NCBI GenBank assembly: GCA_048938105.1
Contig: JBHLMN010000007.1
Location: 96,001-160,000, forward strand
Length of the DNA stretch: 64,000 nt
Reading direction: 5' to 3'
DNA from: Promethearchaeota archaeon
GTDB lineage: Archaea > Asgardarchaeota > Heimdallarchaeia > Hodarchaeales > Hodarchaeaceae
In this document: in pieces, positions 14,501 through 40,653 of the stretch
Numbering within the stretch: position 1 is the first letter of the stretch
How the letters are laid out: every line of letters starts with the position of its first letter
Notes under the pieces: generated by a model
The model's input: the letters and a program-made list of their open reading frames with translations, nothing else
What the model was told of the DNA's origin: nothing
The model's database searches: none
Program-made: the position numbers and the translations under genes

Positions 14501-15034
14501 CTATTCCAGCTTTTTTCCATATTCAAATAGATTTCCCACGTCATAAATATCTAATTGAACCTTTGATAGGGGAGTGGCTACTTTTAAGGGTTGATTCTTG
14601 GAAATATTAACGATTTCTCCTGTTTTTAAATTAACTTTAATCTTGTCACCTGTTTCAATGTTATCAGACATAATTTCTGAAGCCACCATAAGAGGTAAGC
14701 CTGAATTAATGGTGTTCCGTTTATAGATCGCTCCAAAAGACTCCCCAATGATCATTTGGACACCAAGGGCTCGAAAACAATCAACAGCTTGCTGTCTGCT
14801 ACTTCCAGCACCAAAATTCATACCAACAATTAGAATATCCCCAGATTTTGCCTTATCAGAAAAGTCTTGCCATCCTTGGAGATTACCAAAGGTATATTGG
14901 CCCATTTCATTGATGTCAGTAATATGTAAATGCTTATTGTGAAAAATCATGTCTGTATCTATATCGTCAATGGATTTTCCCTTGCTGTCCTTTATTACCA
15001 TTGCTCTTCCTTCAAGAATAATAGGTTTTTTCAT
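14501..15034 (-). CDS. leuD: 3-isopropylmalate dehydratase/homoaconitase-family small subunit (copy 1)
   Basis: DIDTDMIF, NFGAGSSRQQA, SFGAIYKRNTINSGLP; start at MKKPII. Confidence 0.88.
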   Translation of the reverse strand: MKKPIILEGRAMVIKDSKGKSIDDIDTDMIFHNKHLHITDINEMGQYTFGNLQGWQDFSDKAKSGDILIVGMNFGAGSSRQQAVDCFRALGVQMIIGESFGAIYKRNTINSGLPLMVASEIMSDNIETGDKIKVNLKTGEIVNISKNQPLKVATPLSKVQLDIYDVGNLFEYGKKLE

Positions 15035-15056
15035 TTTTTCACCTCTAAACTCATCA

Positions 15057-16310
15057 TTATAATTCTGGAACTGATATCTCACCAGCTAAAGCAGATGCAG
15101 CAGCAGTAGCTGGAGATGCCAAATATGTATCTCCTGAACCTTGTTTACCAGCAAAATTACGATTTCCAGTAGATATTTGCACCTCACCTTTTCCAGTCAT
15201 CCCAACTTGACCTGCAGCACAGCCACCACACCCTGGGTTGGTAATGATAGCACCAGCTTCATATAGAATAGTGATAAGACCATCATTCAATAATTGTCCA
15301 TAAACTTCTTTTGTAGCAGGGACAATCTTCATCATGACGTTTGGATGAATCTTTTTATTCTTGAGTATTCTTGCTACAATAGAGATATCTTCATATCGAC
15401 CATTAGTACAACTAGCGACAACTACAGAGTCAACTGGCGTTCCAGTAACTTCAGCAACAGGTTTAACATTAGCTGGGGAAGGTGGTAAAGCAATTAATGG
15501 TTCAAGACCTGAAAAATCGAATTTTAATTTTTCAATGTACTCCACATCTGTGTCTGATTCATATACAGGGAATTCACGACCACTTCGTTCTTTACAGTAT
15601 TGAATGACCTTTTCATCAGGGTGAATCAGTCCAATAATACCCCCCATTTCGGTAACCATTGATGCAAGGGTTATTCTTCCAGCTAAATCAAGGGATTCGA
15701 CAGTATTTCCATAAAATTCGATCGATTTTCCTAGGGCTCCCTTGGAACCAATCTGTTGAAGAACCCCAAGAGTCACATCCTTAGCAGAGGCGTTTCTTGC
15801 AGGTTTGCCTTCAATAGTGATAGTCATTGATTCGGGTACTTCAAACCAAGTTTTACCAGTCTTAAATGCGAAAGCAATATCCTGATCACCCATGCCTTGA
15901 CCAAAAGAGCCAATAGCCCCAAGTATGTTCAAATGTGAATCCGTTCCAACAACAGTGCTGCCAGGAATAGCTATACCTTTTTCAATCATAACATGGGATC
16001 CAATACCTGCGTCAACATCATAAAGATTTTCACGGGCCAATTGATTCCGAGCAAAAACGCGTGAAATATGTTGGTTTTCCGCATAACCAATGGTTTTTGC
16101 TGGAACAACGCAATCAAAAGTAAAGAAAGTTTTCTTCGGATCAGCTACTTGAGGTTCATTTGGGTAATATTTTTCTAAATTCTTGACAACATTAGCGCCA
16201 CCAAAATCTCTTGCAGATCTAACATCAATTTCCAACCAAACGATACTTCCTGGAGTAACATCCTCTGCTGTGTGGTTTGCAATGATTTTCTCGATGATAG
16301 TTTTTCCCAT
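15057..16310 (-). CDS. leuC: 3-isopropylmalate dehydratase/homoaconitase-family large subunit (copy 1)
   Basis: GTDSH, SCTNGR, CGGC (4Fe-4S ligands), STGNRNFAGKQG; start at MGKTIIEKI. Confidence 0.9.
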   Translation of the reverse strand: MGKTIIEKIIANHTAEDVTPGSIVWLEIDVRSARDFGGANVVKNLEKYYPNEPQVADPKKTFFTFDCVVPAKTIGYAENQHISRVFARNQLARENLYDVDAGIGSHVMIEKGIAIPGSTVVGTDSHLNILGAIGSFGQGMGDQDIAFAFKTGKTWFEVPESMTITIEGKPARNASAKDVTLGVLQQIGSKGALGKSIEFYGNTVESLDLAGRITLASMVTEMGGIIGLIHPDEKVIQYCKERSGREFPVYESDTDVEYIEKLKFDFSGLEPLIALPPSPANVKPVAEVTGTPVDSVVVASCTNGRYEDISIVARILKNKKIHPNVMMKIVPATKEVYGQLLNDGLITILYEAGAIITNPGCGGCAAGQVGMTGKGEVQISTGNRNFAGKQGSGDTYLASPATAAASALAGEISVPEL

Positions 16311-16599
16311 CAGTTTGTACACCTTTTTATTATTGGTAATAAGCAACGATAAAAGGAATAATCGTGAAATCGCCTATAAATCATCAACATATCATTTTGT
16401 AGTTTCGATTATAAATTTCATTGAATCAGCAAATCAAGGATAAGAATCTCTATTCATCTAAAAAACACAAGTAACACTATTACGAAACTCAAAAGGGGGA
16501 AAACATAAGGAGTTGATTTTAGTTTTCTATTGAAATTACATTCCCGAATACATATAATTATATATTAAAAGATATATCAATAATCGAAAACTTGCTAAG

Positions 16600-16833
16600 T
16601 TGAAATTGGAAGCTATCAAAGTGACGCTTGAAATCAAAGAGGACACTAATCTTCATCGTAAGGCCGAAATGGAGTTAGTCTGTCCCTGGTGTCATACTCA
16701 TAGCATTACTACCATTATTAACCATGGTACACTTCGTTTGAGATGCACTGATTGTGGGATGGATGCATTTATAACTAGAATCCCACGAAATAAGAAATTA
16801 TCTGATTACATTTCCCGTCGTTTAATTTCGTGA
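16600..16833 (+). CDS. Small zinc-ribbon protein (start may be 16669)
   Basis: CPWC-x15-CTDC, basic C-terminus. Confidence 0.6.
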   Translation: MKLEAIKVTLEIKEDTNLHRKAEMELVCPWCHTHSITTIINHGTLRLRCTDCGMDAFITRIPRNKKLSDYISRRLIS

Positions 16834-16844
16834 TGACTTATCCT

Positions 16845-16891
16845 AATAATAAGGTTTCTTATTTAGTCATTGAGAGTACACTCTCTTCAAT
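16845..16891. promoter_or_regulatory. Two adjacent inverted repeats upstream of leuC copy 2
   Basis: AATAAG-gttt-CTTATT and GAGAGT-ac-ACTCTC. Confidence 0.35.
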
Positions 16892-16940
16892 AAAGAATTT
16901 AACTCATTCAACTATTCTGTAACTGAAGAGGAATTTAGCA

Positions 16941-18203
16941 ATGACTGGACAGACACTCATTCAGAAAATTCTTGCAAGAGCTGCAGGGAAAGAAACAGAA
17001 GGGGTATCCGAAAATGAGATAGTATTTGTTTCTCCCCATATGATTCTTAGTCATGATAATTCTGCTGCTATTTCAAAAACTTTCTATCAAATTACAGGAT
17101 CTGATGGTAAAGTTTGGGATCCAAATAAGATTTTCATTGACCTAGACCACGCGGTTCCTCCACCTGATTATAAGAAGGCAGAGAATCATAAAATAATCAG
17201 AGAATTTGTAAAAAAGCAAGGAATAAAACATTTTTATGATTGTGGGACAGGGATTTGTCATCAAGTTCTTCCCGAAGAAGGTTTAGTTCCTCCAAACGTT
17301 GTGATTCTAGGTTCTGATTCTCATACAACGACTCATGGAGCATTTGGGGCTGCTGGCATACCAATAGGTCGTACTGAAACAGCATCGGTATGGGCAATTG
17401 GAGAAACATGGCTTAAAGTCCCTGAAACGCTTAAAATTAACTTGAATAACTATTTACCTAAAGAAGTATTTGCAAAAGATGTCATTTTAGATATTATTGG
17501 ACAAATTTCGGCTGATGGAGCTACATACAAATCAATAGAGTTTTATGGAAAAGCTGTAGAGAAATTGTCTATCAGTGATCGAATGACGATCAGTAATATG
17601 TCAGCAGAGGCAGGGGCAAAAGCCGGGATCTTTCCAATTGACAAAGTTACTGATACTTGGAACAAACAGTTTGATTTTACTTATGAAAAACTTGAAGCTG
17701 ACGATGATGCGAGCTATGAACAAGAGCTCTCTTTTGATCTTGCTAACCTGACACCAAGGGTAGCAAAACCTCACAAAGTTGACAATGTTGTTCCTATCGA
17801 AGATCTACCAAAAACCAAAATAGATGTCGCACTTCTTGGTACGTGCACAAATGGTAGAATCGAAGACCTCCGAATTGCAGCAAAAATTCTAAAAGATAAA
17901 AAAGTTCATTCTAATATCAGACTACTTATTTATCCAGCTTCAAGAAGGATTCTTAATCAAACAATTAAAGAAGGGATTATGGAAATTTTTGTAGAAGCTG
18001 AAGGCCAAATAGGAGTACCAGCCTGTGGGCCCTGTTTAGGGGAGTATGGTGGAACCCTAGCTCCAGGAGAAACAGCCATTTCAACGGCAAATAGGAACTT
18101 CAGAGGGAGAATGGGAACTAGAGATGCTGAAATTTATCTAGCCAATCCTGCAGTGGTTGCTAAATCAGCAATAGCAGGGTATATTACTAATGAGGAGGTC
18201 TAA
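16941..18203 (+). CDS. leuC: 3-isopropylmalate dehydratase/homoaconitase-family large subunit (copy 2)
   Basis: SHDN, LDH, GICHQV, GSDSHT, TCTNGR, CGPCLG, NRNFRGRMG. Confidence 0.93.
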   Translation: MTGQTLIQKILARAAGKETEGVSENEIVFVSPHMILSHDNSAAISKTFYQITGSDGKVWDPNKIFIDLDHAVPPPDYKKAENHKIIREFVKKQGIKHFYDCGTGICHQVLPEEGLVPPNVVILGSDSHTTTHGAFGAAGIPIGRTETASVWAIGETWLKVPETLKINLNNYLPKEVFAKDVILDIIGQISADGATYKSIEFYGKAVEKLSISDRMTISNMSAEAGAKAGIFPIDKVTDTWNKQFDFTYEKLEADDDASYEQELSFDLANLTPRVAKPHKVDNVVPIEDLPKTKIDVALLGTCTNGRIEDLRIAAKILKDKKVHSNIRLLIYPASRRILNQTIKEGIMEIFVEAEGQIGVPACGPCLGEYGGTLAPGETAISTANRNFRGRMGTRDAEIYLANPAVVAKSAIAGYITNEEV

Positions 18204-18208
18204 AAACT

Positions 18209-18721
18209 ATGAAATTTGAAGGAAAAATGTGGATCTTCCCTGATGATGACATTAATACAGATGTTATTTTCCCTGGGAAATATACGTACGAGCCCCTAAC
18301 TCCTGAACAAATGGCAAAATATGCCATGGAGGATTACGATCCCAACTTTGCAAAACAGGTTTCTAGGGGTGATATTATTGTTTCGGGGAAGAATTTTGGA
18401 TGTGGTAGTAGCCGTGAACAAGCTGTAATCTGCTTGGTAACAGCTGGGGTAGGTTGTGTTATTGCTAAATCTTTTGCACGAATATATTACAGAAATGCAA
18501 TAAATCAAGCTCTACCACTTGTTATTTCACCAGAATGTTCTGATTTCGTTATAGAGAATAAAAATACGCTTGATAACGAAAAAATTTTAGTAGATTTTGA
18601 TGTGGGTATCATTAAACTCCAAGCGAAGGAATTTCACTTCCCTAAACTTGATAGTCAAGCCTTGGAAATCTTTAAAGCTGGAGGGTTAGTAGAGTATACA
18701 CGTAATCGTTTAAAGAAATAA
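18209..18721 (+). CDS. leuD: 3-isopropylmalate dehydratase/homoaconitase-family small subunit (copy 2)
   Basis: INTDVIFPGKY, NFGCGSSREQA, SFARIYYRNAIN. Confidence 0.93.
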   Translation: MKFEGKMWIFPDDDINTDVIFPGKYTYEPLTPEQMAKYAMEDYDPNFAKQVSRGDIIVSGKNFGCGSSREQAVICLVTAGVGCVIAKSFARIYYRNAINQALPLVISPECSDFVIENKNTLDNEKILVDFDVGIIKLQAKEFHFPKLDSQALEIFKAGGLVEYTRNRLKK

Positions 18722-18783: not shown

Positions 18784-20076
18784 TCATCCTTTTTTAGGCG
18801 TAATATCGACTAATTCATAGTCTCGAGATCCAATGCCTTGCGCAAAAGCTGCTGCAAGTTGCGTTTCTGCAATAATTGGTCGAGATTTAGGATCTACGAA
18901 ACAACTTAATAGACCAAATTTTTGAGTACCAGATTCCATCACTTCAGGAATAGGATCAATTCTTCCATGTGGAGAATCCAGTCCAGTTTCAGCTGGAGAT
19001 TCAGGTACCCCTGGTGCTTTTGTAACAAGATCAACACATGCTTGATCAATCGCGATTGGATCGTTTGAATATAGGATCCCCTGATCAGGTACTAAAAGAC
19101 TACCACCTGCACTCGCACAATCGCAATGACTCGTAATATCTATTGCGATGTTAATATAACGGAGCCTTTCTTCACCATCGCTGTTTATTCCTTTCACTAC
19201 TCCAGCTGCGTTGTCCATCATTCGTTCTACCTGCTCAACACTAGGAATTTGGCGCTTTACTGCAAAAATACGCTTCGCTTCTAACTCCTTTGGTAGAATT
19301 CCATAATGACACTTTGCAAAACACATTGTACAGGCTATACATTTATCAGGGTCATGTACTATCTTCTTATTCTCATCTAATGAAAGAGCTTGTGTTGGAC
19401 AAATCCTGATACATTTCCCACAGCCAGTACAATTCTCTGGTCTTTTGACATAGATATTCTGTCCTCCACCCCAATGAGCTCCACCCTTTCCCTCATTACC
19501 AACGCAACCAATTCCCAATTGCTTGAGAGCACCCCCAAATCCAGCACCATCATGTCCCTTGAAGCGTGCTACAATGAGAGTTTTATCTGCCATTCTCAAT
19601 CCCATCGCTAACGCAACATCTTTGATGTACTTCCCTTTTTCGTTATGTACTCTGAAAACCTCTGTTCCTATGATACCATCGTCCATAACAACAGGAGCAT
19701 TCAGAGATCCAATGTTGAACCCATTTCTATTTGCTAAGTATACAAATCCAGGGCCATTCGACATAGTTGCTTCTTTGTGACGTTCATCCCAGAATAACCC
19801 AACTCCTTCACAAACCCAGGGTATTCCTCCAGCTTCACGAACTAAATCTACAACTTTTCTAATGTACATTGGACGAAGATGTCGAGTTTGATTTCTACTT
19901 CCGAAGTGAGTCTTGATAGCGACTATTTCTTCTTCTTTTATCCAATCTTTCAATCCTACATCGACATGGTTCCACAAGTGTTCTAAACGATCTATAAGCG
20001 AGTCTCCCATTCCTATCCCTTTTGTATTGACCATAAACACTTTTGTTTTACTCACAATTCTCACAACATATTTCAA
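18784..20076 (-). CDS. DUF362-family Fe-S protein with inserted 2x[4Fe-4S] ferredoxin domain
   Basis: AIKTHFG, FKGH..AGFGGALKQLGIGC, CTGCGKCIRICP, CIACTMCFAKC, CDC, DPIAIDQA. Confidence 0.88.
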   Translation of the reverse strand: MKYVVRIVSKTKVFMVNTKGIGMGDSLIDRLEHLWNHVDVGLKDWIKEEEIVAIKTHFGSRNQTRHLRPMYIRKVVDLVREAGGIPWVCEGVGLFWDERHKEATMSNGPGFVYLANRNGFNIGSLNAPVVMDDGIIGTEVFRVHNEKGKYIKDVALAMGLRMADKTLIVARFKGHDGAGFGGALKQLGIGCVGNEGKGGAHWGGGQNIYVKRPENCTGCGKCIRICPTQALSLDENKKIVHDPDKCIACTMCFAKCHYGILPKELEAKRIFAVKRQIPSVEQVERMMDNAAGVVKGINSDGEERLRYINIAIDITSHCDCASAGGSLLVPDQGILYSNDPIAIDQACVDLVTKAPGVPESPAETGLDSPHGRIDPIPEVMESGTQKFGLLSCFVDPKSRPIIAETQLAAAFAQGIGSRDYELVDITPKKG

Positions 20077-20253
20077 TTTGAACTTTAAGCATAAATAGCT
20101 GTGTATTAACGTTATCTAATTGGAGTTAAATAATCATAGTATAAGCGATCCGAGCGAAAGACAATAAATCCAAAATAACAATAATTAATTCCAAATAATT
20201 TCACTTGAAAGGTTGAAAACTGATTTTCAATAAAATATAATTTAGAGTGAATA

Positions 20254-20633
20254 ATGATGCCAAACCTTAAGATTGAAGTAATTAAGATATTAGAGGCTAT
20301 ATATGGGCTTATATATATGATGGACGACTAAGACTTTATACTACTACATCAGGTGCTCTTGCTCCACCACTACGATATATGTGTGTCAATTATCAAGATC
20401 CGAATTTCTGGAAAATGTACCTTCCAACAGTTTATGATAATAGTTTAATGCAAATTGGTTGTAGTGGTTATCCCGATACAGATTCTGACTGGTTTGATGA
20501 GGATTTAGATGGCCAAATAAACATGAAACTGGCATACGGATGGATATGGGATAATTGTCCACCAATGTATCCTTTTATTGATACTGGTTTTGGAGAAATA
20601 ACATACGAAGCGGTCAATGACTATTGGTATTAG
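20254..20633 (+). CDS. Small acidic Trp/Tyr/Asp-rich protein; apparently frameshifted near the 5' end (in-frame ATG at 20379)
   Basis: ATG 20254 gives MMPNLKIEVIK; the 20379 frame is open from 20286 (DIRGYIWAY...). One extra A at ~20284 joins them. Confidence 0.5.
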
Positions 20634-20645
20634 CAATTCATTCGC

Positions 20646-20704
20646 AAGTGAGAAGAGACTAAACGATTAACTACCGTGAACATGTAATCTCTTCACTTTT
20701 TTTT
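20646..20704 (+). terminator. Imperfect hairpin plus T8 tract
   Basis: AAGTGAGAAGAGA ... TCTCTTCACTT followed by a T-run just after the 20633 stop. Confidence 0.5.
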
Positions 20705-20912
20705 ATATCAGATGACATCACACAGGGCGTATGAAGAGTATTTCCTTGTTAAAAGGCACACCACTGGGTTAACATTTTTAATTCTGGCATTTATGTTCTA
20801 AAGAAAATGGTATATATTTGTGAAAATATTATTTAATTTGATAGCTAATAACTTGTGAGATGAAAATTTAATAATTGTGGATCTAAAAAATTATGAATGA
20901 GAGAGGAGTCAA

Positions 20913-21869
20913 ATGAGTATTAGTACATTACCAATTTTCGTTAAAGGGTTAACAAAACAATTTACTAGAGATAAACTAGCGTTAGATAACATTAATCTAT
21001 CAGTTGTTGATGGTGAAACCGTAGGTATTCTTGGTAACAATGGGGCTGGAAAAACAACGCTTCTTCGAATTTTAGCTACTTTATCATATCCTTCCACTGG
21101 AATTGTCGAAATCTTTGGTCTGGATCCCAGACAAGAGGCGCATACGATTAAGGAAATGATTGGTTATCTTCCAGAGAATTTTTCATTCTATCCATATTTT
21201 ACAGTTATAGAGATAATCAAGTTTTTCGAACACCTCAACCCTATAGCTAGACCAGATCAGGTTGAATACCGTGAAAAGATCATTAAAATTTTGTTACTTG
21301 AACCATATTTAAATCAAAAAATTAGTACCTTATCAAAAGGAACCTTACATAAAGTTGGTTTATCAATTATTTTGATACATGATCCCCAACTTCTTCTACT
21401 GGATGAACCAACAACTGGTCTAGATCCATTAGTAAGATCAGAAGTTCGAAAGATATTGATTGATCTCACCGATGATTTAGACAAAACAATACTAATTTCA
21501 TCCCATATTCTCGAAGATATTGAGGCTGTTTGTGATCGCGTATTCTTTTTAGAAGCAGGAAAAATGATTTCTGAACCTTGCTGGATTTCTGAACTCCAGG
21601 AAGACTTTTCTAAGCTTCAACGTCTAGAGTTCAGATGTAGTGATATTACGACAGTGATTAATAAGCTCCATAATAACGCTGATGTCCTCTTCTTTGATTC
21701 AAAAGCCAGATTTGTTGATATTTACTGTAAAAAGGATAAGACTGAAAAAATTACAAAAGAAATTCTAATTGATTGTAAGAATTCTGTTAAAGTAAATAAT
21801 TATCCTATTAGTTTAGAGGATATTTATATTCTTAATCATGCTAAGAAAGACTGGGTAGAATTCCTATAA
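20913..21869 (+). CDS. ABC exporter ATP-binding protein (CcmA/DrrA-like)
   Basis: GNNGAGKTT, LSKG, LLLLDEPTTGLDP, SSH. Confidence 0.95.
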   Translation: MSISTLPIFVKGLTKQFTRDKLALDNINLSVVDGETVGILGNNGAGKTTLLRILATLSYPSTGIVEIFGLDPRQEAHTIKEMIGYLPENFSFYPYFTVIEIIKFFEHLNPIARPDQVEYREKIIKILLLEPYLNQKISTLSKGTLHKVGLSIILIHDPQLLLLDEPTTGLDPLVRSEVRKILIDLTDDLDKTILISSHILEDIEAVCDRVFFLEAGKMISEPCWISELQEDFSKLQRLEFRCSDITTVINKLHNNADVLFFDSKARFVDIYCKKDKTEKITKEILIDCKNSVKVNNYPISLEDIYILNHAKKDWVEFL

Positions 21870-21887
21870 AGGAAAGGGAAACCAATA

Positions 21888-23417
21888 TTGCAAATAAAGT
21901 ACCAATATTTCCTTTCAGTTGAAATTAAACATCGTTTAAGAACAACAGTAATGTCTTGGATTTATACTATCGTTTTATTAATTTCAGGGATATATTTATT
22001 TTTTATGACAGTTTTTTTTAATGAAATAGATCTAAACAAATACTTGTTTCTCCTTTTATTCTTCCTAATACTATTTTTTCCTCAAAATAATGACATATTT
22101 TCACGGGAAATAACGTCAAATATGGTTGATTATGTAATTATGACTTCACCCATTTTTAAAACAATTTTTCTTTCAAGAATATATGCTAATGCATTTTTTA
22201 TGATTGTTCCAGGATTGCTAATACATTTTGGAGCGTTTTTAGTTCCAAGATTATTTATTCAGCTTGATATTGTAAATTATGCCATCTTATTGTGTTTAAT
22301 ATTCTTCTTACTGCTTTTTTGGTTTTTACTTTCAACACAGATTCTTTTAATCCTGCAGTTTAAGATTTCTGATTCATTAATCTGTACTTTACTATATTTT
22401 GGAATAATTCTCAGTTTAATTTTTATTACATCTTTCTTTAGTACTTTAATGGGTTCATTAAAGTTTGGTTCTGTATTTATTGGTTTTATTTCAGAAGATA
22501 ATATGATCATTTCACTTTTTTCCCTTTTTGTGGGTTGTTCAGTTCTATCAGTCACATTATCGTATTCAATAGAGCATTGGATTGTAAATATCTCTAAAAA
22601 GATGGAAAGAAGAGAAGAGGATATTAAACATCCTTATTCTCTTTATAATTTAATTGGATGTTCAAACAATCTTAATAAAAAGGATTTTATTTTTTATTTT
22701 GTTGATATTTTATGTGTTTCCATATTTCCCTTCTTTTTGGATTCTACTTTCTATAATAATATCATCTTAAGAACAGAGTCTTTTTTCATAATAATTTTTC
22801 AGAATTTCATAACACTAATCACCATTAATTTCATCATCGCCATCTTATATACAGTAATTAGAGTGCTTCCACAAGTCACTGCAGAGAAACAATTTAACAT
22901 GGAGGAACTTTTATTATCAAAAATTTCAGCTTTTAAATATTTGAAAGAAAAATGTAAATTATTGTATCGTCCATTTTCAGTTTTCTTATTAATACCAGTC
23001 TGTCTTTTCACAATATTTTCAATGTTCATTTCATTTATTCTGAATAGACCATTTCCACTTGTAGATTATTTTGAAATTCTTCTCCTATTAATGATGATTC
23101 TGATCATCCTAGTGGCATATTTTACATCACTTTTGATTTTTCTCTGGCGTTTTTTACCGGCAAGAGACCTATTAAGATCATCTATTATTACTATTTTTGG
23201 AATAGAAATCCTTGCAACCGTCATTTCTATATTCTTTTTTCCCCCAGCTATTATTTTTGCAATAATCTTGTCTAGTCTTGGACTTCAAGTAATTATATTT
23301 GATTCAGCGGTTAATAACAGTTTTTTGTTTATATATGGAAACTTGGCAAATCTTTCTCTAATTCTATTATTTGCATCATACATTCTTCTAAAAGCCGATA
23401 TAAAATTCCATTCATGA
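21888..23417 (+). CDS. Divergent ABC-2-type permease, two tandem halves
   Basis: Very hydrophobic (I/F/L-rich); FSREITSNMVDYVIMTSP and VTAEKQFNMEELLLSK motifs; directly follows the ATPase. Confidence 0.7.
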   Translation: MQIKYQYFLSVEIKHRLRTTVMSWIYTIVLLISGIYLFFMTVFFNEIDLNKYLFLLLFFLILFFPQNNDIFSREITSNMVDYVIMTSPIFKTIFLSRIYANAFFMIVPGLLIHFGAFLVPRLFIQLDIVNYAILLCLIFFLLLFWFLLSTQILLILQFKISDSLICTLLYFGIILSLIFITSFFSTLMGSLKFGSVFIGFISEDNMIISLFSLFVGCSVLSVTLSYSIEHWIVNISKKMERREEDIKHPYSLYNLIGCSNNLNKKDFIFYFVDILCVSIFPFFLDSTFYNNIILRTESFFIIIFQNFITLITINFIIAILYTVIRVLPQVTAEKQFNMEELLLSKISAFKYLKEKCKLLYRPFSVFLLIPVCLFTIFSMFISFILNRPFPLVDYFEILLLLMMILIILVAYFTSLLIFLWRFLPARDLLRSSIITIFGIEILATVISIFFFPPAIIFAIILSSLGLQVIIFDSAVNNSFLFIYGNLANLSLILLFASYILLKADIKFHS

Positions 23418-24232
23418 CTTTATATAAAGGATTTACATTGATCGATACTGATTCTCGTTTCAATAAGCCAAAGATAACAATAATTTCGGTCTTTTTTGTA
23501 TGGAATGTGACAAATGATCCAAGAACTAGTCTCAACAATATATACATGTCCTTGGTAATCCTTTAACGCTCCTAAACCAACTATTGGGAAGCATCAAATA
23601 TCTCTCTACATTTCGGACACTGCTAATAGACATTTTCACCGTATTCCCTCCCATTTATTCGTGAGATTATGATCTGCTTTTGATCTGGTACAATCTGCAC
23701 ATCTCTCTCGTCTTAAAATATGGCTAAAGAACTTATCATTCCTAAATAAAAGACCTAAATCCATGATCCAGAAAAGAAATGTATAAAAAAAATAGTATTA
23801 TCGTTCCTTTCATAGTAGAGGATTCAAAGAGTTTAAGGAAGCTGAAGGGAAGAAAACTTCCTTTAACCCATATCTCCACCTGCCAGAATAGCAGATTCCT
23901 GACTGATAGATAGATCATGAAACCCAATAATCATAACAGTACGCCCGCTAGGAGGGTTGGGTGGGGTTCCCGAACTCTTATAGAGAACAGGGGGATAGCA
24001 TAGAGACTACTTTTTTGCGGATCACAATCATAAAAATGGTTATAGCTTCCTAAATTTCTTGGATTAATGGCAACAGTTTCCAACCCTCTCTTGCCCTGAT
24101 TATAAGAATCCTGTAGTTTTTAAGATCATACGAGTTGAAAAAGAATCCTAAAATGATCATCAAAAATCCGAAATGCTTTTTATGAATTTGAACACTTACA
24201 TCTAGATATAGTCATTAGGAAAGTTAAATCTA

Positions 24233-24700: not shown

Positions 24701-24811
24701 GAAGCATGTGCATAGAAAGAAAGAGCAAATTTGGGTTCAACTACCTATTATCACAATGAGGAGGTATAAAAAATAAGCATAAAATCTTTCCTTAACAGTT
24801 CTAGTAGTAGA

Positions 24812-28926: not shown

Positions 28927-30045
28927 TTAAATCATTTTCTTTACTACTTCTTCAGCTACTTCTAATGTGGTATTAGAACCACCCATGTCATAAGTTTTTA
29001 CTTTTCCCTCCTTAATAACCGCAGATATCCCCTTTTCAATATTTTTCGCAATTTCTAACAAGGACTGATCTCCTTTGGCACCAAGCCACTCTAATAATAA
29101 TTTCCCTGATAAAATGGCTGCTGTAGGATTTACCTTATATTGCCCCGCATACTTTGGAGCTGACCCATGGGTAGGTTCAAAGAGACCGTAAATATTCCCA
29201 TTAGTTGAGGCGCTAGAAGCAAAACCTAATCCACCTACTAATTGGGCTGCAAGATCGCTGATGATATCACCGAACATATTCGTGGTTACCATGACTCCAT
29301 AATCTTGAGGGTTTTTGATCAACCACATACACATAGCATCGATATTTGTTTCCCACATTTCGACCTCAGGATAATCTTTAGCTACTTCAAAAGCGATTCG
29401 TCGAAACATGCCACATGTTTGACGAATTACATTCGCTTTGTGTATCACAGTAACAGTGGGGTATCCAAATTTCTTCGCATATTCAAAGGCAGTGACTAAA
29501 ATTCTACGACAACCTTTCTCAGTAAATACACGACATGAAACTGTAGTTTTTTCTGGATCAAATTTCTGAAATTTATCTAATGAAACAAGCTGTCTAAATT
29601 CTTCCCCGCTATCATACTCAATTCCAGTATAAAGACCCTCTGTGTTCTCTCTAAATGTGATAAGATCAATATCATCCCGATAGTTGAGAGGATTACCGGG
29701 ATAGGCTTTAGTTGGCCGCATATTAGAGTATAAATCGAAGATTTGGCGTAAGCGTACAATAGGTGACCGATAAGAAATGCCAAATTTCTGGACTGTCTTA
29801 ACCACTTCAGGATCTGTTGTTGGACGAGAAGTAATTGCACCAAATAATGCAGCATCTGTTTCTTTCATTCCCTCAACTGTACGCTCAGGAAGAGGATCTC
29901 CTTCAGCTTTGAAAATATCAAACCCAATATCGAGTGGAATGTATTCTGAATCAAAGTTTGTCGCATCTAGCACAATTCTGGCTGCTTCTAAGACGTCTTT
30001 ACCGATCCCGTCCCCAGGCATATAAGCAATTTTATATTTAGTCAT
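28927..30045 (-). CDS. Isocitrate/isopropylmalate/homoisocitrate dehydrogenase family
   Basis: PGDGIG, RENTEGLY, HKANV, NMFGDIISD, FEPTHGSAP. Confidence 0.93.
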   Translation of the reverse strand: MTKYKIAYMPGDGIGKDVLEAARIVLDATNFDSEYIPLDIGFDIFKAEGDPLPERTVEGMKETDAALFGAITSRPTTDPEVVKTVQKFGISYRSPIVRLRQIFDLYSNMRPTKAYPGNPLNYRDDIDLITFRENTEGLYTGIEYDSGEEFRQLVSLDKFQKFDPEKTTVSCRVFTEKGCRRILVTAFEYAKKFGYPTVTVIHKANVIRQTCGMFRRIAFEVAKDYPEVEMWETNIDAMCMWLIKNPQDYGVMVTTNMFGDIISDLAAQLVGGLGFASSASTNGNIYGLFEPTHGSAPKYAGQYKVNPTAAILSGKLLLEWLGAKGDQSLLEIAKNIEKGISAVIKEGKVKTYDMGGSNTTLEVAEEVVKKMI

Positions 30046-30061
30046 TTTTTTCCTTCCTATA

Positions 30062-30622
30062 TTATTTGGTCTCCATAAAGATTTTCAGGGGGCCAAAATG
30101 TAAGAAATCACAACGATGGATAATTTCACCTTCGATTGTCCGTCCTGGTCCTTTATCTCCTTCCCAAGAGTGTTGATAAATATTCTGCATGACTTCATAT
30201 GGAAGTTCGTGTTTCATTGCTAGACCAGCTCCTGTTACTGGGTGTCTAAGCCTGTTACCTGTTTTAGATTTCACTACTTTTCCATCTGATGTCTGAGCAA
30301 ATTCGATTGGTTTGCCTATATCGTGTAGAATGGCACTAGCGATAAGAATATCATGATTAATGGGAATGCCCTGCTTTTCCAGCAAATTGGCTGATTGATG
30401 AGCCAGATTTGTTACAATTTTTACATGATCAACAAAACTCACCTTTACTTCAGGAATAACAAGTGTAAAAGGAAATTCCATATTTTTCCATCCACGTCCA
30501 TCGTTACCCATTTTAAGGGCTTCCACACATACATCTATGACCTTCTGCTGTAAATTTTGGTCTGAAATCAGATCTAACTGATTCGAAAATACTTCTCGTA
30601 CGTATTCTTCCAATATTTTCAC
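30062..30622 (-). CDS. HD-domain phosphohydrolase
   Basis: H...LHDIGKP; RHP; HS; CD. Confidence 0.88.
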   Translation of the reverse strand: MKILEEYVREVFSNQLDLISDQNLQQKVIDVCVEALKMGNDGRGWKNMEFPFTLVIPEVKVSFVDHVKIVTNLAHQSANLLEKQGIPINHDILIASAILHDIGKPIEFAQTSDGKVVKSKTGNRLRHPVTGAGLAMKHELPYEVMQNIYQHSWEGDKGPGRTIEGEIIHRCDFLHFGPLKIFMETK

Positions 30623-37481: not shown

Positions 37482-37511
37482 AAACTCTGTGAATTACGAA
37501 GAGGAAATATT

Positions 37512-38537: not shown

Positions 38538-39112
38538 GAGAACTCCAAACAATTATTAGCAAACCTAAACAAATAGAAAATACGTACCCAATGTCTTATG
38601 GATTACTTCATCGATATACTAAAGAAATTATTATTCCTATGATGCATCAAAAGGATTTAACAATTGCCACAGTTGAATTAACAACCTGTGGTCTCATTAG
38701 TGATCTCCTAACAGGATCTAGTGGGGCTTCACAGATTTTTATTCTTGGAATGACCCCCTACTCAAATGAGATGAAGATTAAATTAGGAATACCCCGCGAG
38801 GATTTATCATTCAAGGGTTATGGGGTTGCGTCTCCTGAGATCGCTAAACAACTGTCACAGCGAATAAGGGATTATTCAGGAGCAAAAATTGGCTTGGCAG
38901 AGACTGGATTAATAACATCAGCAGAATTAAGGAAAAGAAGAACAAAGAAGGAAGCTGGTGAGGTATATGCAGCTATAACTTTCAACGAGGAAGTGTCAGT
39001 TACAAAATTACAGATCCAAAAAGGTCTGAAACGAAGAGAAATGCGCCAAGAAATAGCTTTCCGTGTTTTACGATTTCTAGAATCTTTTTTGACTCCTTTA
39101 GGAACCGATTAA
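38507..39112 (+). CDS. CinA C-terminal / PncC-like protein (catalytic Ser apparently lost)
   Basis: IATVELTTCGLI (canonical TAESCTGG), GAS, YSNEMK, ETG. Confidence 0.82.
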   Translation: MDSNKQPNFIRELQTIISKPKQIENTYPMSYGLLHRYTKEIIIPMMHQKDLTIATVELTTCGLISDLLTGSSGASQIFILGMTPYSNEMKIKLGIPREDLSFKGYGVASPEIAKQLSQRIRDYSGAKIGLAETGLITSAELRKRRTKKEAGEVYAAITFNEEVSVTKLQIQKGLKRREMRQEIAFRVLRFLESFLTPLGTD

Positions 39113-40653
39113 TTATTAACTTTATAGATGACATCAAGGAGAGTTCCATCCCGAAATTCAACTGCCGTGCAAATCTCATCTGTGAAATCAGGCTGTAAAG
39201 GAGCCGCCTGACTATAAGCCATATCTCGTAGTTCAGTAATATCTGTTATATCTATCTCTGCTTTTGTCAATTTATCTTTGAGTTTAGTTCTCCTTGGATT
39301 AACAGCTATACCTGCATCGGTTATCACAACATCTATCATTTCTCCAGGTGTTGAGACAGTAGTTACTCGATCTCGGACAATTGGTACCTTTCTAGCAATA
39401 GGACATGTAATAATTGTTAACTGAGCAGCAGCTGCATCAGTATGTCCTCCAATACCATGAAGTAGTAATCCATCTGAATGTGTATTGACATTTACGTTGA
39501 AATCAATATCAATCTCAGTTGCTCCAAGAGCTACTACATCAACAAAGTGTGCAAGTGGACCTCCTGGAGCCCAAATATTGTAAGAATTCTGAGCTGACCA
39601 CTCATAATGACAGGGATTTTCTCGTAAAGATCTAGCAGCAGCAAGATCAAATGACTGTCCATCAAATATCTTCCTCACCAAACCTTCTTCCAGCAGTTTA
39701 ACTGCTGCCTCTGTGGTCCCACCGTGAATAAATGATCCTTGGATTTCTCTTTCAATCATCAATTCGTGTAAGAATCGTGTTGTTCCAAGGGATACTCCTC
39801 CCGCCCCTGCTTGAAAAGATAATCCTTCCTTTATATATCCAGCGGCTTCTGCTACTTTGACTACCCGTTCCGCAATTTCTAGATGACCTTTTGTTACATT
39901 TCTTCCAAGGGAGCCTGCTACAATCTTATTGGGATCTCCAATACGATCTACTGTTACTATATAATCTACTTTATCTCCCTTTATACTCACAGGATAAACA
40001 GGTTCATCGGTTAAGAGATTATCTGTTACAAGAACCACTTTATCTGCGTAAACTGAATCAGTTTCGTTAGCGAACCCGCAAGCACCGTAAGCAGAAGGTC
40101 CTTGACATCCGTTCATGTTACCCATTTCATCCACAGCGGGAGCAGCAATAAAAGAAACGTTAAGATGGAGTTCTCCGCACTCTACAGCGCGTGCTCGTCC
40201 TCCATGCGAACGTAAACTGGTAGGAATGTCTATTTCTCCTATAGAAACAGCTTTACCAATGGGACCATTCATCGATCCAGAAATACAGCCAATTACACCA
40301 GAATGAATGTGTTCAATAAGAGGTTCATGATTAGGAAATAAAGCAGTAGATGCTATAGTTAAATTTTTGTAACCCATTGAAGCGATAGTATCCATAACCT
40401 CACAAATGACAAAATCGCCGTATCTGAGATTGTGAATAAAGCCAATGGTCATACCATCACTAAGATTTACCTTTGAAATGACCTGTTCTAAATCATCGAA
40501 TATTCGTTTAGTTTTACTCGTAGTAATGTGTGAAGGGTACTTACGTCCAACTTTAGATCCTTTAGGTACAGTTGAATATGCTCCTCTGTAAGGTTCATAT
40601 GTTCTATCAAATATCTTTTCTGGTACTTCTCTTCTAACCGCATTTATTACCAT
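39109..40653 (-). CDS. citF: Citrate lyase alpha subunit / CoA-(ACP) transferase
   Basis: HNLRYGD, LRSHGGRARA, FQAGAGG, DGQSFD, LGATEIDIDFNVNV, EFRDGTLLD. Confidence 0.9.
   Translation of the reverse strand: MVINAVRREVPEKIFDRTYEPYRGAYSTVPKGSKVGRKYPSHITTSKTKRIFDDLEQVISKVNLSDGMTIGFIHNLRYGDFVICEVMDTIASMGYKNLTIASTALFPNHEPLIEHIHSGVIGCISGSMNGPIGKAVSIGEIDIPTSLRSHGGRARAVECGELHLNVSFIAAPAVDEMGNMNGCQGPSAYGACGFANETDSVYADKVVLVTDNLLTDEPVYPVSIKGDKVDYIVTVDRIGDPNKIVAGSLGRNVTKGHLEIAERVVKVAEAAGYIKEGLSFQAGAGGVSLGTTRFLHELMIEREIQGSFIHGGTTEAAVKLLEEGLVRKIFDGQSFDLAAARSLRENPCHYEWSAQNSYNIWAPGGPLAHFVDVVALGATEIDIDFNVNVNTHSDGLLLHGIGGHTDAAAAQLTIITCPIARKVPIVRDRVTTVSTPGEMIDVVITDAGIAVNPRRTKLKDKLTKAEIDITDITELRDMAYSQAAPLQPDFTDEICTAVEFRDGTLLDVIYKVNN

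What the first reader, a model, noticed from the sequence alone, without database searches (positions are those of the whole stretch)
14501..40653. Dispersed set of parts for an unusual tricarboxylate/citramalate pathway: 2x LeuCD + IDH-like + HD protein + lone CitF
Seen: within about 26 kb lie two complete aconitase-family hydro-lyases (14501-18721), an HD + beta-hydroxyacid dehydrogenase operon (28927-30622) and a citrate lyase alpha subunit (39109-40653). No leuA/homocitrate synthase, ilv, lysW/X or other biosynthetic neighbours are in the window. Established: CitF is the CoA/ACP transferase of citrate and citramalate lyases; LeuCD-type enzymes can act on citraconate, homoaconitate, dimethylmaleate or cis-aconitate. 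Inference: these may be a broken-up catabolic module rather than Leu/Lys synthesis. One option is glutamate -> 2-oxoglutarate -> (reductive carboxylation) isocitrate -> citrate -> acetate + oxaloacetate; another is a citramalate variant. The HD protein might process the lyase ACP prosthetic group.
Basis: partly seen in the sequence, partly recalled or inferred. Interest (0 to 1): 0.75.

Follow-up and report, generated by a model that had tools for sequence, protein, structure and literature searches.

The report
Split tricarboxylate gene module, Asgard archaeon
Two aconitase-like enzyme pairs, a dehydrogenase and a small HD protein scattered in this Asgard archaeon's DNA are pieces of one widespread, unstudied gene set that most likely links citrate and 2-oxoglutarate. 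Its missing partner is an ATP-citrate-lyase-like enzyme on another contig, not the nearby lone citF gene.

Summary
All the genes are real and intact at the stated coordinates.

**One module.** The two LeuCD pairs and the HD + IDH-like pair belong together. In ten genomes of a sister family they form one operon: HD, IDH-like, LeuCD1, LeuCD2, then an ATP-citrate-lyase-like pair (a succinyl-CoA-synthetase-type ligase fused to a citryl-CoA-lyase-type domain). The same set recurs in other gene orders in Planctomycetota, in a MAG labelled Methanomassiliicoccales and in other MAGs. In this genome the ACL-like pair lies on contig C6.

**What the genome lacks.** CitD, CitE, CitX, CitG and any LeuA/homocitrate-synthase-type enzyme.

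**CitF.** It is not a core part; it is absent from the family with the intact operon. However, CitF paralogues in this lineage sit beside citryl-CoA-lyase-type genes or an AcnA aconitase.

**Most likely chemistry (inferred, untested).** Acetyl-CoA + oxaloacetate <-> citrate <-> isocitrate <-> 2-oxoglutarate, coupled to ATP. A homocitrate-type substrate is the main rival. LeuC1 lacks the usual catalytic histidine.

**Prior record.** Earlier AI notes of this scan describe the intact operon on other DNA. My paper searches found no description.

The parts
14501..15082 (-). LeuD1: small subunit of the divergent aconitase-family hydro-lyase (LeuCD1)
   Evidence: Aconitase_C and LEUD_arch 130 bits, below every equivalog cut-off. 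The specificity loop reads HLHI, where M. jannaschii LeuD has YLVY and HacB has YLRT. The clade motif is FHN-x-[HY]-L-x-I.
15057..16346 (-). LeuC1: large subunit. It keeps the three Fe-S cysteines but lacks the aconitase His101-equivalent (Cys instead) and has Arg-Asp where LeuC has His-Asp
   Evidence: Alignment to PDB 4KP1. The motifs ARD[FY]xG, FxxDC and GIGSH are conserved across its clade. The clade is monophyletic and separate from canonical LeuC. Orthologues are 76-83% identical in the genus and 55-61% in three other Asgard families.
16941..18203 (+). LeuC2: large subunit of the second hydro-lyase, with all canonical catalytic residues
   Evidence: PRK00402 527 bits; best equivalog HacA_Meth 468 bits, below its 550 cut-off. 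The motifs [ST]HDN, [LI]DH, GICHQ, DSH and CGPC are conserved. Its own clade reaches Planctomycetota.
18209..18721 (+). LeuD2: small subunit of the second hydro-lyase
   Evidence: LEUD_arch 169 bits; HacB2_Meth 150 bits, below its 230 cut-off. The loop reads YTYE. The clade motif (Y/L)-T-Y is conserved from Asgard archaea to Planctomycetota.
28927..30045 (-). IDH-like beta-decarboxylating dehydrogenase of a distinct, widespread subfamily
   Evidence: Iso_dh 290 bits, with all NCBIfam equivalogs below cut-off. Best PDB matches are an NAD-IDH (6LKY) and Thermus homoisocitrate DH. The motif S-P-I-V-[RK]-L-R-Q and a roughly 13-residue insert are conserved. Orthologues at 48-67% identity occur in many phyla.
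30062..30622 (-). HD/HDIG-domain protein, the genome's only copy of a family that accompanies citryl-CoA-lyase-type genes
   Evidence: Pfam HD and TIGR00277. It is a single copy in the genome. It lies beside the ACL-like or CCS/CCL genes in Asgard, Thermoplasmatota, Planctomycetota, Acidobacteriota and other lineages. The AF2 model (pLDDT 92) shows only a generic HD fold.
39109..40653 (-). CitF1: lone citrate-lyase alpha / citrate CoA-transferase homologue. It is an accessory gene, not a core part of the module
   Evidence: TIGR01584 518 bits, above its 501 cut-off. The genome has no CitD/E/X/G. It is 52% identical to CitF2 on C6. In four genus relatives its orthologue is followed by a 129-aa ORF and an AcnA gene. 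CitF is absent from family f2, which has the intact module.

Best explanation
**Shown.** LeuCD1, LeuCD2, the IDH-like dehydrogenase and the HD protein are three of the pieces of one conserved gene module.

- The remaining piece in this genome is an ATP-citrate-lyase-like pair on contig C6. The ATP-grasp beta subunit is at C6:282731-284065(-). The alpha subunit, at C6:280593-282734(-), has CoA-binding and ligase domains fused to a citryl-CoA-lyase-type domain.
- That pair lies tail-to-tail with a second CitF.

**Inferred.**
- The module runs an ATP-coupled version of the citrate branch: acetyl-CoA + oxaloacetate <-> citryl-CoA (lyase domain) <-> citrate + ATP (ligase part) <-> aconitate <-> isocitrate (the two LeuCD-type enzymes, perhaps one half-reaction each) <-> 2-oxoglutarate + CO2 (IDH-like).
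- The direction is unknown. It could make 2-oxoglutarate while saving the thioester energy as ATP, or cleave citrate made reductively from glutamate-derived 2-oxoglutarate.
- HD has an unknown accessory role tied to the lyase.
- The lone CitF proteins are probably free-CoA citrate CoA-transferases that feed the same type of lyase without ATP.
For: **Module**
- Ten genomes of sister family f2 carry the co-directional run HD, IDH-like, LeuC1, LeuD1, LeuC2D2, beta, alpha. Family f19 has it in a second order.
- A MAG labelled only 'bacterium' has HD-LeuCD1-LeuCD2-beta-alpha. A MAG labelled Eisenbacteria has LeuD-LeuCD-beta-alpha, and one labelled Chloroflexota has HD-beta-alpha-LeuCD1.
- Four Phycisphaerales have beta, alpha, CCL and HD followed by LeuC2D2 and IDH-like.
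- A Methanomassiliicoccales-labelled MAG has the full set with unfused SCS and CCL.
- The own genome has one HD, one ACL-like pair and one copy of each LeuCD type. Contigs C42 and C6 share composition.
- In 301 Thermoplasmatota genomes, HD and the IDH-like orthologue co-occur: 87 have both, 7 have only one and 7 only the other, 200 have neither. They are directly adjacent in at least seven.

**Citrate-type chemistry**
- The lyase domain's best solved match is Hydrogenobacter citryl-CoA lyase 6HXP (E 1e-33). The DHG, HGGA, GHR and NVD motifs are intact.
- In f2 the module holds the only Iso_dh-family and Citrate_synt-family genes, and HMGL-like genes are absent (0 of 7).
- Thermotomaculum hydrothermale, represented by a single 2.3-Mb contig, has this IDH-like as its only Iso_dh gene, no HMGL-like gene, a citrate synthase, and an adjacent CCL-esterase-HD run.
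- In 66 of 94 Thermoplasmatota carriers the orthologue is the only Iso_dh hit.
- The IDH-like keeps the Ser113 equivalent of E. coli IDH.

**CitF**
- CitF2-type genes always lie beside a citryl-CoA-lyase-type gene, either fused or stand-alone.
- CitF1 orthologues lie beside acnA in four genus relatives.
- Sister family f6 has classical icd-acn-citDEFX operons.
Against: - No enzyme has been assayed, so the substrates are inferred.
- This genome also has a canonical aclBA-icd-acn cluster, a citrate synthase and an AcnA. The planctomycete carriers have two further Iso_dh genes each. There the module is either redundant or acts on something else.
- LeuC1 lacks the His101 equivalent needed for aconitase-type dehydration: Cys, or Leu in one lineage.
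- Neither LeuD loop matches a characterised one.
- The IDH-like has Ile where IDH has Asn115.
- The ligase half is closer to true succinyl-CoA synthetases than to Hydrogenobacter CCS or ACL.
- The top-scoring, though sub-threshold, curated families for LeuC2, LeuD2 and the IDH-like are methanogen homoaconitase and homoisocitrate dehydrogenase.
- The CitF link rests on neighbourhood within one order only.
Confidence: 0.5

Rival explanations
1. Same module, different substrate. It makes or splits a citrate analogue, most plausibly homocitrate (2-oxoglutarate + acetyl-CoA <-> homocitrate <-> homoisocitrate <-> 2-oxoadipate). A citrate-synthase-fold, ATP-coupled enzyme would replace the usual LeuA/HCS-type synthase, and the two hydro-lyases would each do one half of the isomerisation.
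For: - The best, sub-threshold, NCBIfam hits are HacA_Meth, HacB2_Meth and AksF2_Meth. Thermus homoisocitrate DH scores almost as well as NAD-IDH.
- The module coexists with complete canonical citrate enzymes here and with extra Iso_dh genes in Planctomycetota.
- Asn115 is replaced and a conserved basic residue lies two positions later.
- No DAP epimerase was found in the genus (0 of 9), while saccharopine-dehydrogenase-family genes are present.
- From my own knowledge: fungi and Thermus need two aconitase-family enzymes for homocitrate isomerisation.
- An earlier AI note, e1-1108437, favoured this reading.
Against: - No LysX-type gene reaches its cut-off.
- All 42 MCR-bearing methanogens in the Thermoplasmatota sample need 2-oxoacid elongation for coenzyme B, yet all lack both the IDH-like orthologue and HD.
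- In f2, in T. hydrothermale and in 66 of 94 Thermoplasmatota carriers, this would leave the organism without any Iso_dh-family isocitrate dehydrogenase.
- Neither LeuD has the HacB Arg-Thr loop.
- From my own knowledge: the known citrate-synthase-fold enzymes use oxaloacetate.
Confidence: 0.27
2. Ordinary leucine/isoleucine or alpha-aminoadipate-lysine biosynthesis genes that happen to lie apart.
For: General family membership only (LeuCD-type, Iso_dh). One IlvD-family gene exists on contig C4.
Against: - The genome has no HMGL-like synthase.
- IlvD was found in none of 29 other genomes of the class.
- No LysX was found.
- All equivalog scores are below their cut-offs.
- LeuC1 and LeuC2 fall outside the canonical LeuC clades.
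- The genes are in an operon with an ACL-like enzyme in relatives.
Confidence: 0.03
3. One reading: a CitDEF-type citrate or citramalate lyase pathway, in which CitF is the module's transferase and HD matures the ACP prosthetic group.
For: CitF passes its equivalog cut-off. Sister family f6 does have icd-acn-citDEFX operons.
Against: - The genome has no CitD, CitE, CitX or CitG.
- CitF is absent from f2, which has the intact module.
- HD follows citryl-CoA-lyase-type genes in lineages that show no CitF in the loci examined.
Confidence: 0.02
4. The parts are unrelated paralogues, and their closeness in the window is chance.
For: In this genome they are 10-20 kb apart, on different strands, and separated by unrelated genes.
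Against: They form an operon in many lineages in several different gene orders. HD and the IDH-like co-occur strongly across genomes.
Confidence: 0.03

Closest known systems
Citryl-CoA synthetase (CcsAB) plus citryl-CoA lyase (Ccl) of Hydrogenobacter thermophilus (Aoshima et al. 2004; PDB 6HXQ, 6HXP); also found in Leptospirillum (PMC2607301)
   Same: It has the same two-step logic: an SCS-type ATP-dependent ligase plus a short citrate-synthase-fold lyase. The lyase domain's best solved match is 6HXP, with catalytic motifs intact. Unfused versions of the module occur in Planctomycetota and in a Methanomassiliicoccales-labelled MAG.
   Different: - Here the lyase is fused to the ligase alpha subunit and preceded by an extra citrate-synthase-like segment (Pfam coverage 10-352 of 357).
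- The ligase half is nearer to true succinyl-CoA synthetases than to CCS.
- The alpha C-terminus scores below the NCBIfam CCL cut-off (209 bits against 245).
- It travels with an HD protein, LeuCD-type hydro-lyases and a special IDH-like enzyme.
- No activity has been shown.
Two-subunit ATP-citrate lyase (AclBA)
   Same: The domain order of the large subunit is the same (CoA-binding, ligase, lyase), and it has an ATP-grasp partner.
   Different: - The genome has a separate canonical aclBA on contig C41, only 24-30% identical.
- The ACL-like beta subunit lacks the Citrate_bind domain of AclB.
Citrate lyase CitDEF with CitX/CitG/CitC
   Same: CitF1 and CitF2 are full-length CitF homologues. Relatives in family f6 have complete citDEFX operons beside icd and acn.
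   Different: This genome has no CitD, CitE, CitX or CitG. An ACP-bound mechanism is therefore not possible as described, and CitF would have to use free CoA esters.
Archaeal LeuCD / HacAB (M. jannaschii isopropylmalate isomerase 4KP1/3VBA, homoaconitase 4KP2/2PKP)
   Same: Same fold and two-subunit build, with roughly 40-45% identity judged by eye from the printed alignments, and the three cluster cysteines.
   Different: - LeuC1 lacks the catalytic His.
- Both LeuD loops differ from YLVY and YLRT.
- Both form separate clades.
- The genome has no LeuA/AksA-type synthase.
NAD-isocitrate dehydrogenase (6LKY) and Thermus homoisocitrate dehydrogenase (1X0L/3ASJ)
   Same: These are the best solved matches, E 4e-64 and 6e-62. 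The catalytic Arg, Tyr, Lys and Asp framework aligns throughout.
   Different: It has its own motif S-P-I-V-[RK]-L-R-Q (Asn115 of IDH lost; Arg85 of HICDH is Val here) and a roughly 13-residue insert. It is below all curated cut-offs.

Membership tests
Citrate lyase complex (CitDEF) | Alpha subunit CitF | tested here: met
   TIGR01584 518 bits, above its 501 cut-off; Pfam CitF 474 bits.
Citrate lyase complex (CitDEF) | Beta subunit CitE (HpcH/HpaI fold) | tested here: not met
   No PF03328 match in the 99%-complete genome. tblastn with the f6 CitE also found nothing.
Citrate lyase complex (CitDEF) | ACP subunit CitD and its maturation enzymes CitX and CitG | tested here: not met
   No PF06857, PF03802 or PF01874 match. 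CitC was not searched.
Leucine pathway LeuABCD | LeuA-type (HMGL-like) 2-isopropylmalate synthase in the genome | tested here: not met
   PF00682 gave 0 matches in the own genome, while the control hit 14 of 14 genomes. Also 0 of 7 in family f2.
Leucine pathway LeuABCD | Equivalog-level scores for LeuC, LeuD and LeuB | tested here: not met
   LEU2 365 and 445 bits against a 611 cut-off. leud 110 and 149 bits against 246. leuB 213 bits against 353.
Leucine pathway LeuABCD | Upstream branched-chain pathway (IlvD) in the lineage | tested here: not met
   An IlvD-family gene occurs only in the own genome, and in none of the other 29 class genomes.
Homoaconitase / homoisocitrate DH (AAA-lysine or coenzyme B) | Homocitrate synthase (HMGL-like) and LysX-type carrier ligase | tested here: not met
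   No HMGL-like gene. The best LysX_arch hit is 100 bits against a 276 cut-off.
Homoaconitase / homoisocitrate DH (AAA-lysine or coenzyme B) | HacB Arg-Thr specificity loop (YLRT); equivalog scores | tested here: not met
   The loops read HLHI and YTYE. HacA_Meth 468 bits against 550, HacB2_Meth 150 against 230, AksF2_Meth 334 against 540. MCR-bearing methanogens lack the subfamily.
CCS/CCL or ATP-citrate lyase type citrate cleavage | ATP-grasp beta subunit plus CoA-binding/ligase alpha domains | tested here: met
   The contig C6 pair has ATP-grasp_2 plus Ligase_CoA, and CoA_binding plus Ligase_CoA plus Succ_CoA_lig. The phospho-histidine itself was not inspected.
CCS/CCL or ATP-citrate lyase type citrate cleavage | Citryl-CoA-lyase domain with its catalytic His/His/Asp motifs | tested here: met
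   Best PDB hit is 6HXP at 1e-33. DHG, HGGA, GHR and NVD align.
CCS/CCL or ATP-citrate lyase type citrate cleavage | Curated family thresholds / AclB citrate-binding domain | tested here: not met
   The alpha C-terminus scores 209 bits against the 245 cut-off of NF004866. The beta subunit lacks PF16114 Citrate_bind. The ligase half is closer to SCS.
CCS/CCL or ATP-citrate lyase type citrate cleavage | Activity on citrate | not testable with these tools
   This needs an enzyme assay.
Aconitase superfamily hydro-lyase | Three cysteine ligands of the 4Fe-4S cluster | tested here: met
   Both LeuC1 (SCTNG, GCxxC) and LeuC2 (TCTNG, CGPC) have them.
Aconitase superfamily hydro-lyase | Catalytic Asp-His pair (aconitase Asp100-His101) | tested here: not met
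   Met in LeuC2 (LDH). Not met in LeuC1: it has Asp-Cys throughout its clade and Asp-Leu in the Methanomassiliicoccales-labelled sister sequence.
Isocitrate dehydrogenase (Iso_dh family) | Ser113 and Asn115 (E. coli numbering), which hold the gamma-carboxylate | tested here: inconclusive
   The Ser is kept, the Asn is replaced by Ile, and a conserved Arg/Lys lies at +2. My mapping to E. coli numbers rests on memory of the motif.
HD-domain metal-dependent phosphohydrolase | HD fold and His...His-Asp...His...Asp metal ligands | tested here: inconclusive
   Pfam HD, and an AF2 model with a generic HD fold. H66, D101, H127, H151 and D172 are invariant. The His of the HD dyad is Ala in the planctomycete and acidobacterial orthologues.

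The most novel reading that the evidence does not exclude
Hodarchaeales-type Asgard archaea run a citrate node built wholly from non-textbook parts.

- An independently evolved SCS + citryl-CoA-lyase fusion couples citrate formation or cleavage to ATP.
- A two-enzyme 'split aconitase' includes a new kind of aconitase-family protein (LeuCD1) that works without the catalytic histidine.
- A dedicated dehydrogenase subfamily and an HD protein accompany them. The HD protein has a new lyase-linked role.
- Lone CitF proteins have shed the ACP system. They act on free CoA esters to hand citryl-CoA to the same lyase fold, giving an ATP-independent by-pass.
Probability: 0.25. Interest if true: 0.75.

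Novelty: new variant of a known kind. Interest (0 to 1): 0.6.

Why it matters
- **Central metabolism.** If the reading holds, a large set of uncultured anaerobes make or split citrate with an enzyme set that standard annotation mislabels as leucine genes, succinyl-CoA synthetase and citrate synthase. The set includes Heimdall/Hod-group Asgard archaea (close kin of eukaryotes), many Thermoplasmatota, Planctomycetota, Acidobacteriota and others.
- **Metabolic reconstructions.** This would change reconstructions such as 'no TCA branch' or 'leucine prototroph' for these lineages. It also bears on how ATP-citrate lyase arose.
- **New biochemistry.** It points to two open problems: an aconitase-family enzyme without its catalytic histidine, and an HD protein faithfully tied to citryl-CoA lyases.
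- **A possible cultured handle.** The named species Thermotomaculum hydrothermale carries the CCL-HD pair and the dehydrogenase, so part of this could be tested at the bench if the species is in culture, as I recall.

Tried and rejected
- **Coenzyme B (Aks) elongation.** Rejected. All 42 MCR-bearing genomes in a 301-genome Thermoplasmatota sample lack both the IDH-like orthologue and HD.
- **Leucine/isoleucine synthesis.** Rejected.
- **HD function from structure.** The AF2 model is confident, but Foldseek gave only generic HD hydrolases such as YhaM and Pfu 1XX7. Sequence search of the PDB gave nothing.
- **DUF362/4Fe-4S, AFOR, HEAT and ThiS-like genes between the parts.** Their synteny holds only within the genus, so I did not count them as parts.
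- **Literature.** Six searches and three papers consulted gave no description of this gene set. I found only CCS/CCL in Aquificae and Leptospirillum, and ACL surveys.
- **Reach of the searches.** The search for related loci with a single sequence reached mainly close relatives. The genomes behind loci L060, L062, L134 and L135 are not held, so they could not be surveyed.
- **CitF outside Asgard.** Homologues at about 50% identity are classical (next to a fused CitD-CitE) in two bacterial contigs and lone in one Thermoplasmata MAG. I did not see a CitF + CCL pairing outside this order.
- **Not done.** A reference-anchored phylogeny was not possible because characterised sequences could not be loaded. 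The tree has no support values printed.

Full report
**1. Observation**

| Gene | Coordinates | Family evidence |
|---|---|---|
| LeuD1 | 14501-15082(-) | Aconitase_C; LEUD_arch |
| LeuC1 | 15057-16346(-) | Aconitase; PRK00402 |
| LeuC2 | 16941-18203(+) | Aconitase; PRK00402 |
| LeuD2 | 18209-18721(+) | Aconitase_C; LEUD_arch |
| IDH-like | 28927-30045(-) | Iso_dh |
| HD/HDIG | 30062-30622(-) | HD; TIGR00277 |
| CitF | 39109-40653(-) | TIGR01584, 518 bits (cut-off 501) |

- None of the LeuC, LeuD or Iso_dh proteins reaches any NCBIfam equivalog cut-off.
- The intervening genes are unrelated by family: an ABC cassette, an aldehyde:ferredoxin oxidoreductase, a HEAT protein, a ThiS-like gene, an Rce1-like gene, an epimerase, DinB and CinA.

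**2. Organism and genome**

- The window is G000:C42:96001-160000 of a 5.85-Mb assembly that is 99% complete with 7% contamination.
- Close homologues carry NCBI names such as Hodarchaeales, Hodarchaeota and Heimdallarchaeota. This agrees with earlier AI notes.
- Contigs C42, C6, C41 and C4 share GC content and tetranucleotide usage.

**3. What the genome lacks and has**

| Family searched | Result |
|---|---|
| CitE (HpcH_HpaI) | none |
| CitD | none |
| CitX | none |
| CitG | none |
| HMGL-like (LeuA/CimA/HCS/AksA type) | none |
| LysX type | nothing above cut-off |
| DAP epimerase, in the genus | 0 of 9 |

The genome does have:
- a canonical citrate synthase on contig C49;
- a canonical sdh-larA-aclB-aclA-icd-acn cluster on C41;
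- an AcnA on C41;
- on C6, a second CitF (52% identical to the window's) lying tail-to-tail with an ACL-like pair.

The ACL-like pair consists of a 444-aa ATP-grasp subunit and a 713-aa protein with CoA-binding and ligase domains plus a nearly full-length citrate-synthase-family domain.

**4. The key result: one module**

LeuC1 orthologues occur in the genus at 76-83% identity and in three other Asgard families at 55-61%. I fetched 20-kb neighbourhoods around them and mapped the window's proteins onto them.

| Lineage | Gene order |
|---|---|
| Sister family f2 (ten genomes) | HD, IDH-like (54-56%), LeuC1-type, LeuD1-type, fused LeuC2D2-type, ACL-like beta (55-58% to the C6 gene), ACL-like alpha (58-61%); one co-directional, tightly packed run |
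| Family f19 | HD-LeuC1-LeuD1, one gene on the other strand, then IDH-like-beta-alpha |
| Own genus (G138) | LeuCD1<>LeuCD2-DUF362-AFOR-HEAT-ThiS-IDH-like-HD, without the window's ABC cassette |
| MAG labelled only 'bacterium' | HD-LeuCD1-LeuCD2-beta-alpha |
| MAG labelled Eisenbacteria | LeuD-LeuC-LeuD-beta-alpha |
| MAG labelled Chloroflexota | HD-beta-alpha-fused LeuCD1 |
| Thermoplasmatota contig | HD-beta-alpha |
| Four Phycisphaerales | beta, alpha, separate 267-aa CCL, GNAT, HD, three genes, fused LeuC2D2, a hydrolase, IDH-like (48-52%) |
| MAG labelled Methanomassiliicoccales | LeuCD / HD-CCL-SucD-like-SucC-like / LeuCD-IDH-like |
| Thermotomaculum hydrothermale | CCL-esterase-HD, beside a 2-oxoacid:ferredoxin oxidoreductase |

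The own genome has just one HD of this family and one ACL-like pair. The window's HD is therefore the partner that elsewhere sits next to that pair.

**5. Co-occurrence**

In an even sample of 301 Thermoplasmatota genomes:

| | HD present | HD absent |
|---|---|---|
| IDH-like orthologue present (at least 54% identity to the Methanomassiliicoccales-labelled protein) | 87 | 7 |
| IDH-like orthologue absent | 7 | 200 |

- These genomes are related, so the Fisher P of 4e-58 overstates the case. The pattern is still plain.
- In at least seven of these genomes HD lies directly upstream of the IDH-like gene, as in the window (coordinates).

**6. The individual enzymes**

*LeuC1*
- It aligns with M. 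jannaschii LeuC (4KP1, E 1e-95) and keeps the three cluster cysteines.
- It has Arg-Asp where LeuC has His-Asp. By my recollection of the aconitase motifs, aconitase has Gln72 at this site.
- It has Asp-Cys where all active family members have Asp-His (aconitase Asp100-His101).
- These changes are fixed across its clade. The Methanomassiliicoccales-labelled sister sequence has Asp-Leu.

*LeuC2*
- It keeps every canonical motif.

*Tree*
- In a FastTree tree (no support values printed), the LeuC1 type and the LeuC2 type are two separate clades. Each mixes Asgard and bacterial members. Both are apart from the other Asgard LeuC groups.

*Small-subunit loops*
- LeuD1 reads HLHI and LeuD2 reads YTYE, against YLVY in M. 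jannaschii LeuD and YLRT in HacB.
- Each loop is conserved within its clade.

*IDH-like*
- It scores best against an NAD-IDH (6LKY) and Thermus homoisocitrate DH.
- Its motif S-P-I-V-[RK]-L-R-Q keeps the Ser113 equivalent, loses Asn115 and gains a basic residue. This motif and an insert are conserved out to Planctomycetota.
- The subfamily occurs at 59-67% identity in Bathyarchaeia, Zixibacteria, Anaerolineae, Bipolaricaulota and T. hydrothermale.

*ACL-like alpha and beta*
- The C-terminal domain of alpha is closest to Hydrogenobacter citryl-CoA lyase (6HXP, 1e-33), with the catalytic motifs present.
- The ligase half of alpha, and beta, are closer to true succinyl-CoA synthetases than to Hydrogenobacter CCS or ACL.
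- This looks like an independent SCS + CCL fusion.

*HD*
- Its AF2 model is confident (pLDDT 92) but matches only generic HD hydrolases.
- In planctomycete and acidobacterial orthologues the His of the HD dyad is Ala.

**7. Which substrate?**

For citrate / isocitrate / 2-oxoglutarate:
- The lyase fold and motifs fit.
- In f2 the module contains the only Iso_dh-family and Citrate_synt-family genes, and there is no HMGL-like gene. f2 also shows only the two module-type hits with the LeuC1 query at E <= 1e-40.
- T. hydrothermale has a citrate synthase, no HMGL-like gene, and this IDH-like as its only Iso_dh gene.
- In 66 of 94 Thermoplasmatota carriers the orthologue is the only Iso_dh hit.

Against, and for an analogue such as homocitrate:
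- The module coexists with full canonical sets in this genome and with two other Iso_dh genes in Planctomycetota.
- The nearest, sub-threshold, curated families are homoaconitase and homoisocitrate DH.
- Asn115 is lost.
- Two hydro-lyases would fit the known need for two enzymes in homocitrate isomerisation (my own knowledge).

Other readings excluded or weakened:
- The coenzyme B version of this idea is excluded. None of 42 MCR-bearing genomes has the IDH-like orthologue or HD.
- A lysine role lacks a LysX system. It cannot be fully dismissed, because no DAP epimerase was found and saccharopine-dehydrogenase-family genes exist.
- Leucine/isoleucine synthesis is excluded by the missing synthase and by the lack of IlvD in 29 of 30 class genomes.

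**8. CitF**

- CitF is absent from all seven sampled f2 genomes, so it is not a core part.
- In sister family f6, every CitF examined sits in a classical citD-citE-citF set, most of them with citX. One set follows icd and a fused aconitase.
- In the window's own order, CitD and CitE are gone.
  - The CitF2 type always lies beside a citryl-CoA-lyase-type gene: the fused alpha in the own genome, G138, G135 and six named Hodarchaeales-type species, or a stand-alone 258-aa CCL in G129, G118 and G106.
  - The window's CitF1 type is followed, in G106, G118, G158 and G160, by a 129-aa ORF and an 896-aa AcnA. That AcnA's orthologue (73%) sits on C41 in this genome.
- These are close relatives, so the evidence is modest.
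- It does suggest that lone CitF works on free CoA esters and passes citryl-CoA to a citrate-synthase-fold lyase.
- Homologues at about 50% identity outside Asgard are classical in two bacterial contigs and lone in one Thermoplasmata MAG.

**9. Comparison with what is known, and novelty**

- The closest described system is the CCS/CCL citrate cleavage of Hydrogenobacter and Leptospirillum. In Leptospirillum, ccsA, ccsB, acnA and ccl are clustered (PMC2607301).
- ACL homologues in Asgard archaea have been reported (bioRxiv 10.1101/2022.10.25.513756).
- I found no paper describing the HD + LeuCD x2 + IDH-like + SCS/CCL set.
- Earlier AI notes of this scan describe the intact operon in Aminicenantes, Anaerolineae and Heimdall-group genomes, with similar readings, one of them favouring homocitrate. 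They are leads, not independent evidence.
  - In this genome the module is split over three loci.
  - CitF is an accessory gene with its own lyase and aconitase links.
  - The methanogen test argues against an Aks role.
  - There is a genome-wide co-occurrence count for HD and the dehydrogenase.

**10. Verdict**

- The 'broken-up module' idea is right for six of the seven genes. The CitF/ACP part is wrong.
- The most likely function is an ATP-coupled citrate-to-2-oxoglutarate branch built from unusual enzymes. It is unproven, and a homocitrate-type substrate is the serious rival.

Noticed in passing
window 16600-16833 (+): A 77-aa ORF with two Cys-x-x-Cys pairs (zinc-ribbon-like) lies in the divergent intergenic region between LeuC1 and LeuC2. 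I did not check its conservation in relatives.
   Followed up: no
window 20076-25466: The ABC ATPase, a large permease and two small ORFs between DUF362 and AFOR are missing from the syntenic stretch of genus relative G138, where about 1 kb separates those genes (L040). This looks like an insertion in this genome.
   Followed up: partly
window 18784-20076 (-): A DUF362 protein with a 4Fe-4S dicluster insert converges on LeuD2. The adjacency is kept in genus relatives (L040-L042) but not in other lineages.
   Followed up: partly
G000:C4:112638-113585: A full-length IlvD/Edd-family dehydratase is present in this genome but in none of 29 other genomes sampled from its class. Contig composition matches the rest of the genome. 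It may be a sugar-acid dehydratase or a recent acquisition.
   Followed up: partly
G000:C19 (2.9-kb contig; L007): This short contig duplicates the 3' part of aclA plus icd from contig C41. It looks like a divergent second copy, a strain variant or contamination.
   Followed up: no
L121, L122 (G122:C24, G153:C4): Sister family f6 has icd - fused aconitase - citD - citE - citF - citX in one run, plus a second citDEF set elsewhere. This is a classical citrate-lyase route in Asgard archaea.
   Followed up: yes
A1 alignment; L077, L102, L104-L107: In planctomycete and acidobacterial orthologues of the HD protein the dyad reads Ala-Asp instead of His-Asp, while the other metal-ligand positions stay invariant.
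   Followed up: no
L060 (Thermoplasmatota contig): HD-beta-alpha lies beside archaeal mevalonate-pathway genes (a GHMP kinase, UbiD, LpdD, three AcnX pieces) and before a B12-binding radical-SAM gene.
   Followed up: no
L136 (Thermotomaculum hydrothermale): Between CCL and HD sits a UPF0227/FSH1-type serine hydrolase. A different alpha/beta hydrolase also sits inside the planctomycete cluster. This may be a recurrent esterase or thioesterase companion.
   Followed up: no
window 28578-28883 (-): A ThiS/MoaD-like gene lies between the HEAT gene and the IDH-like gene. This order is kept in G138.
   Followed up: no
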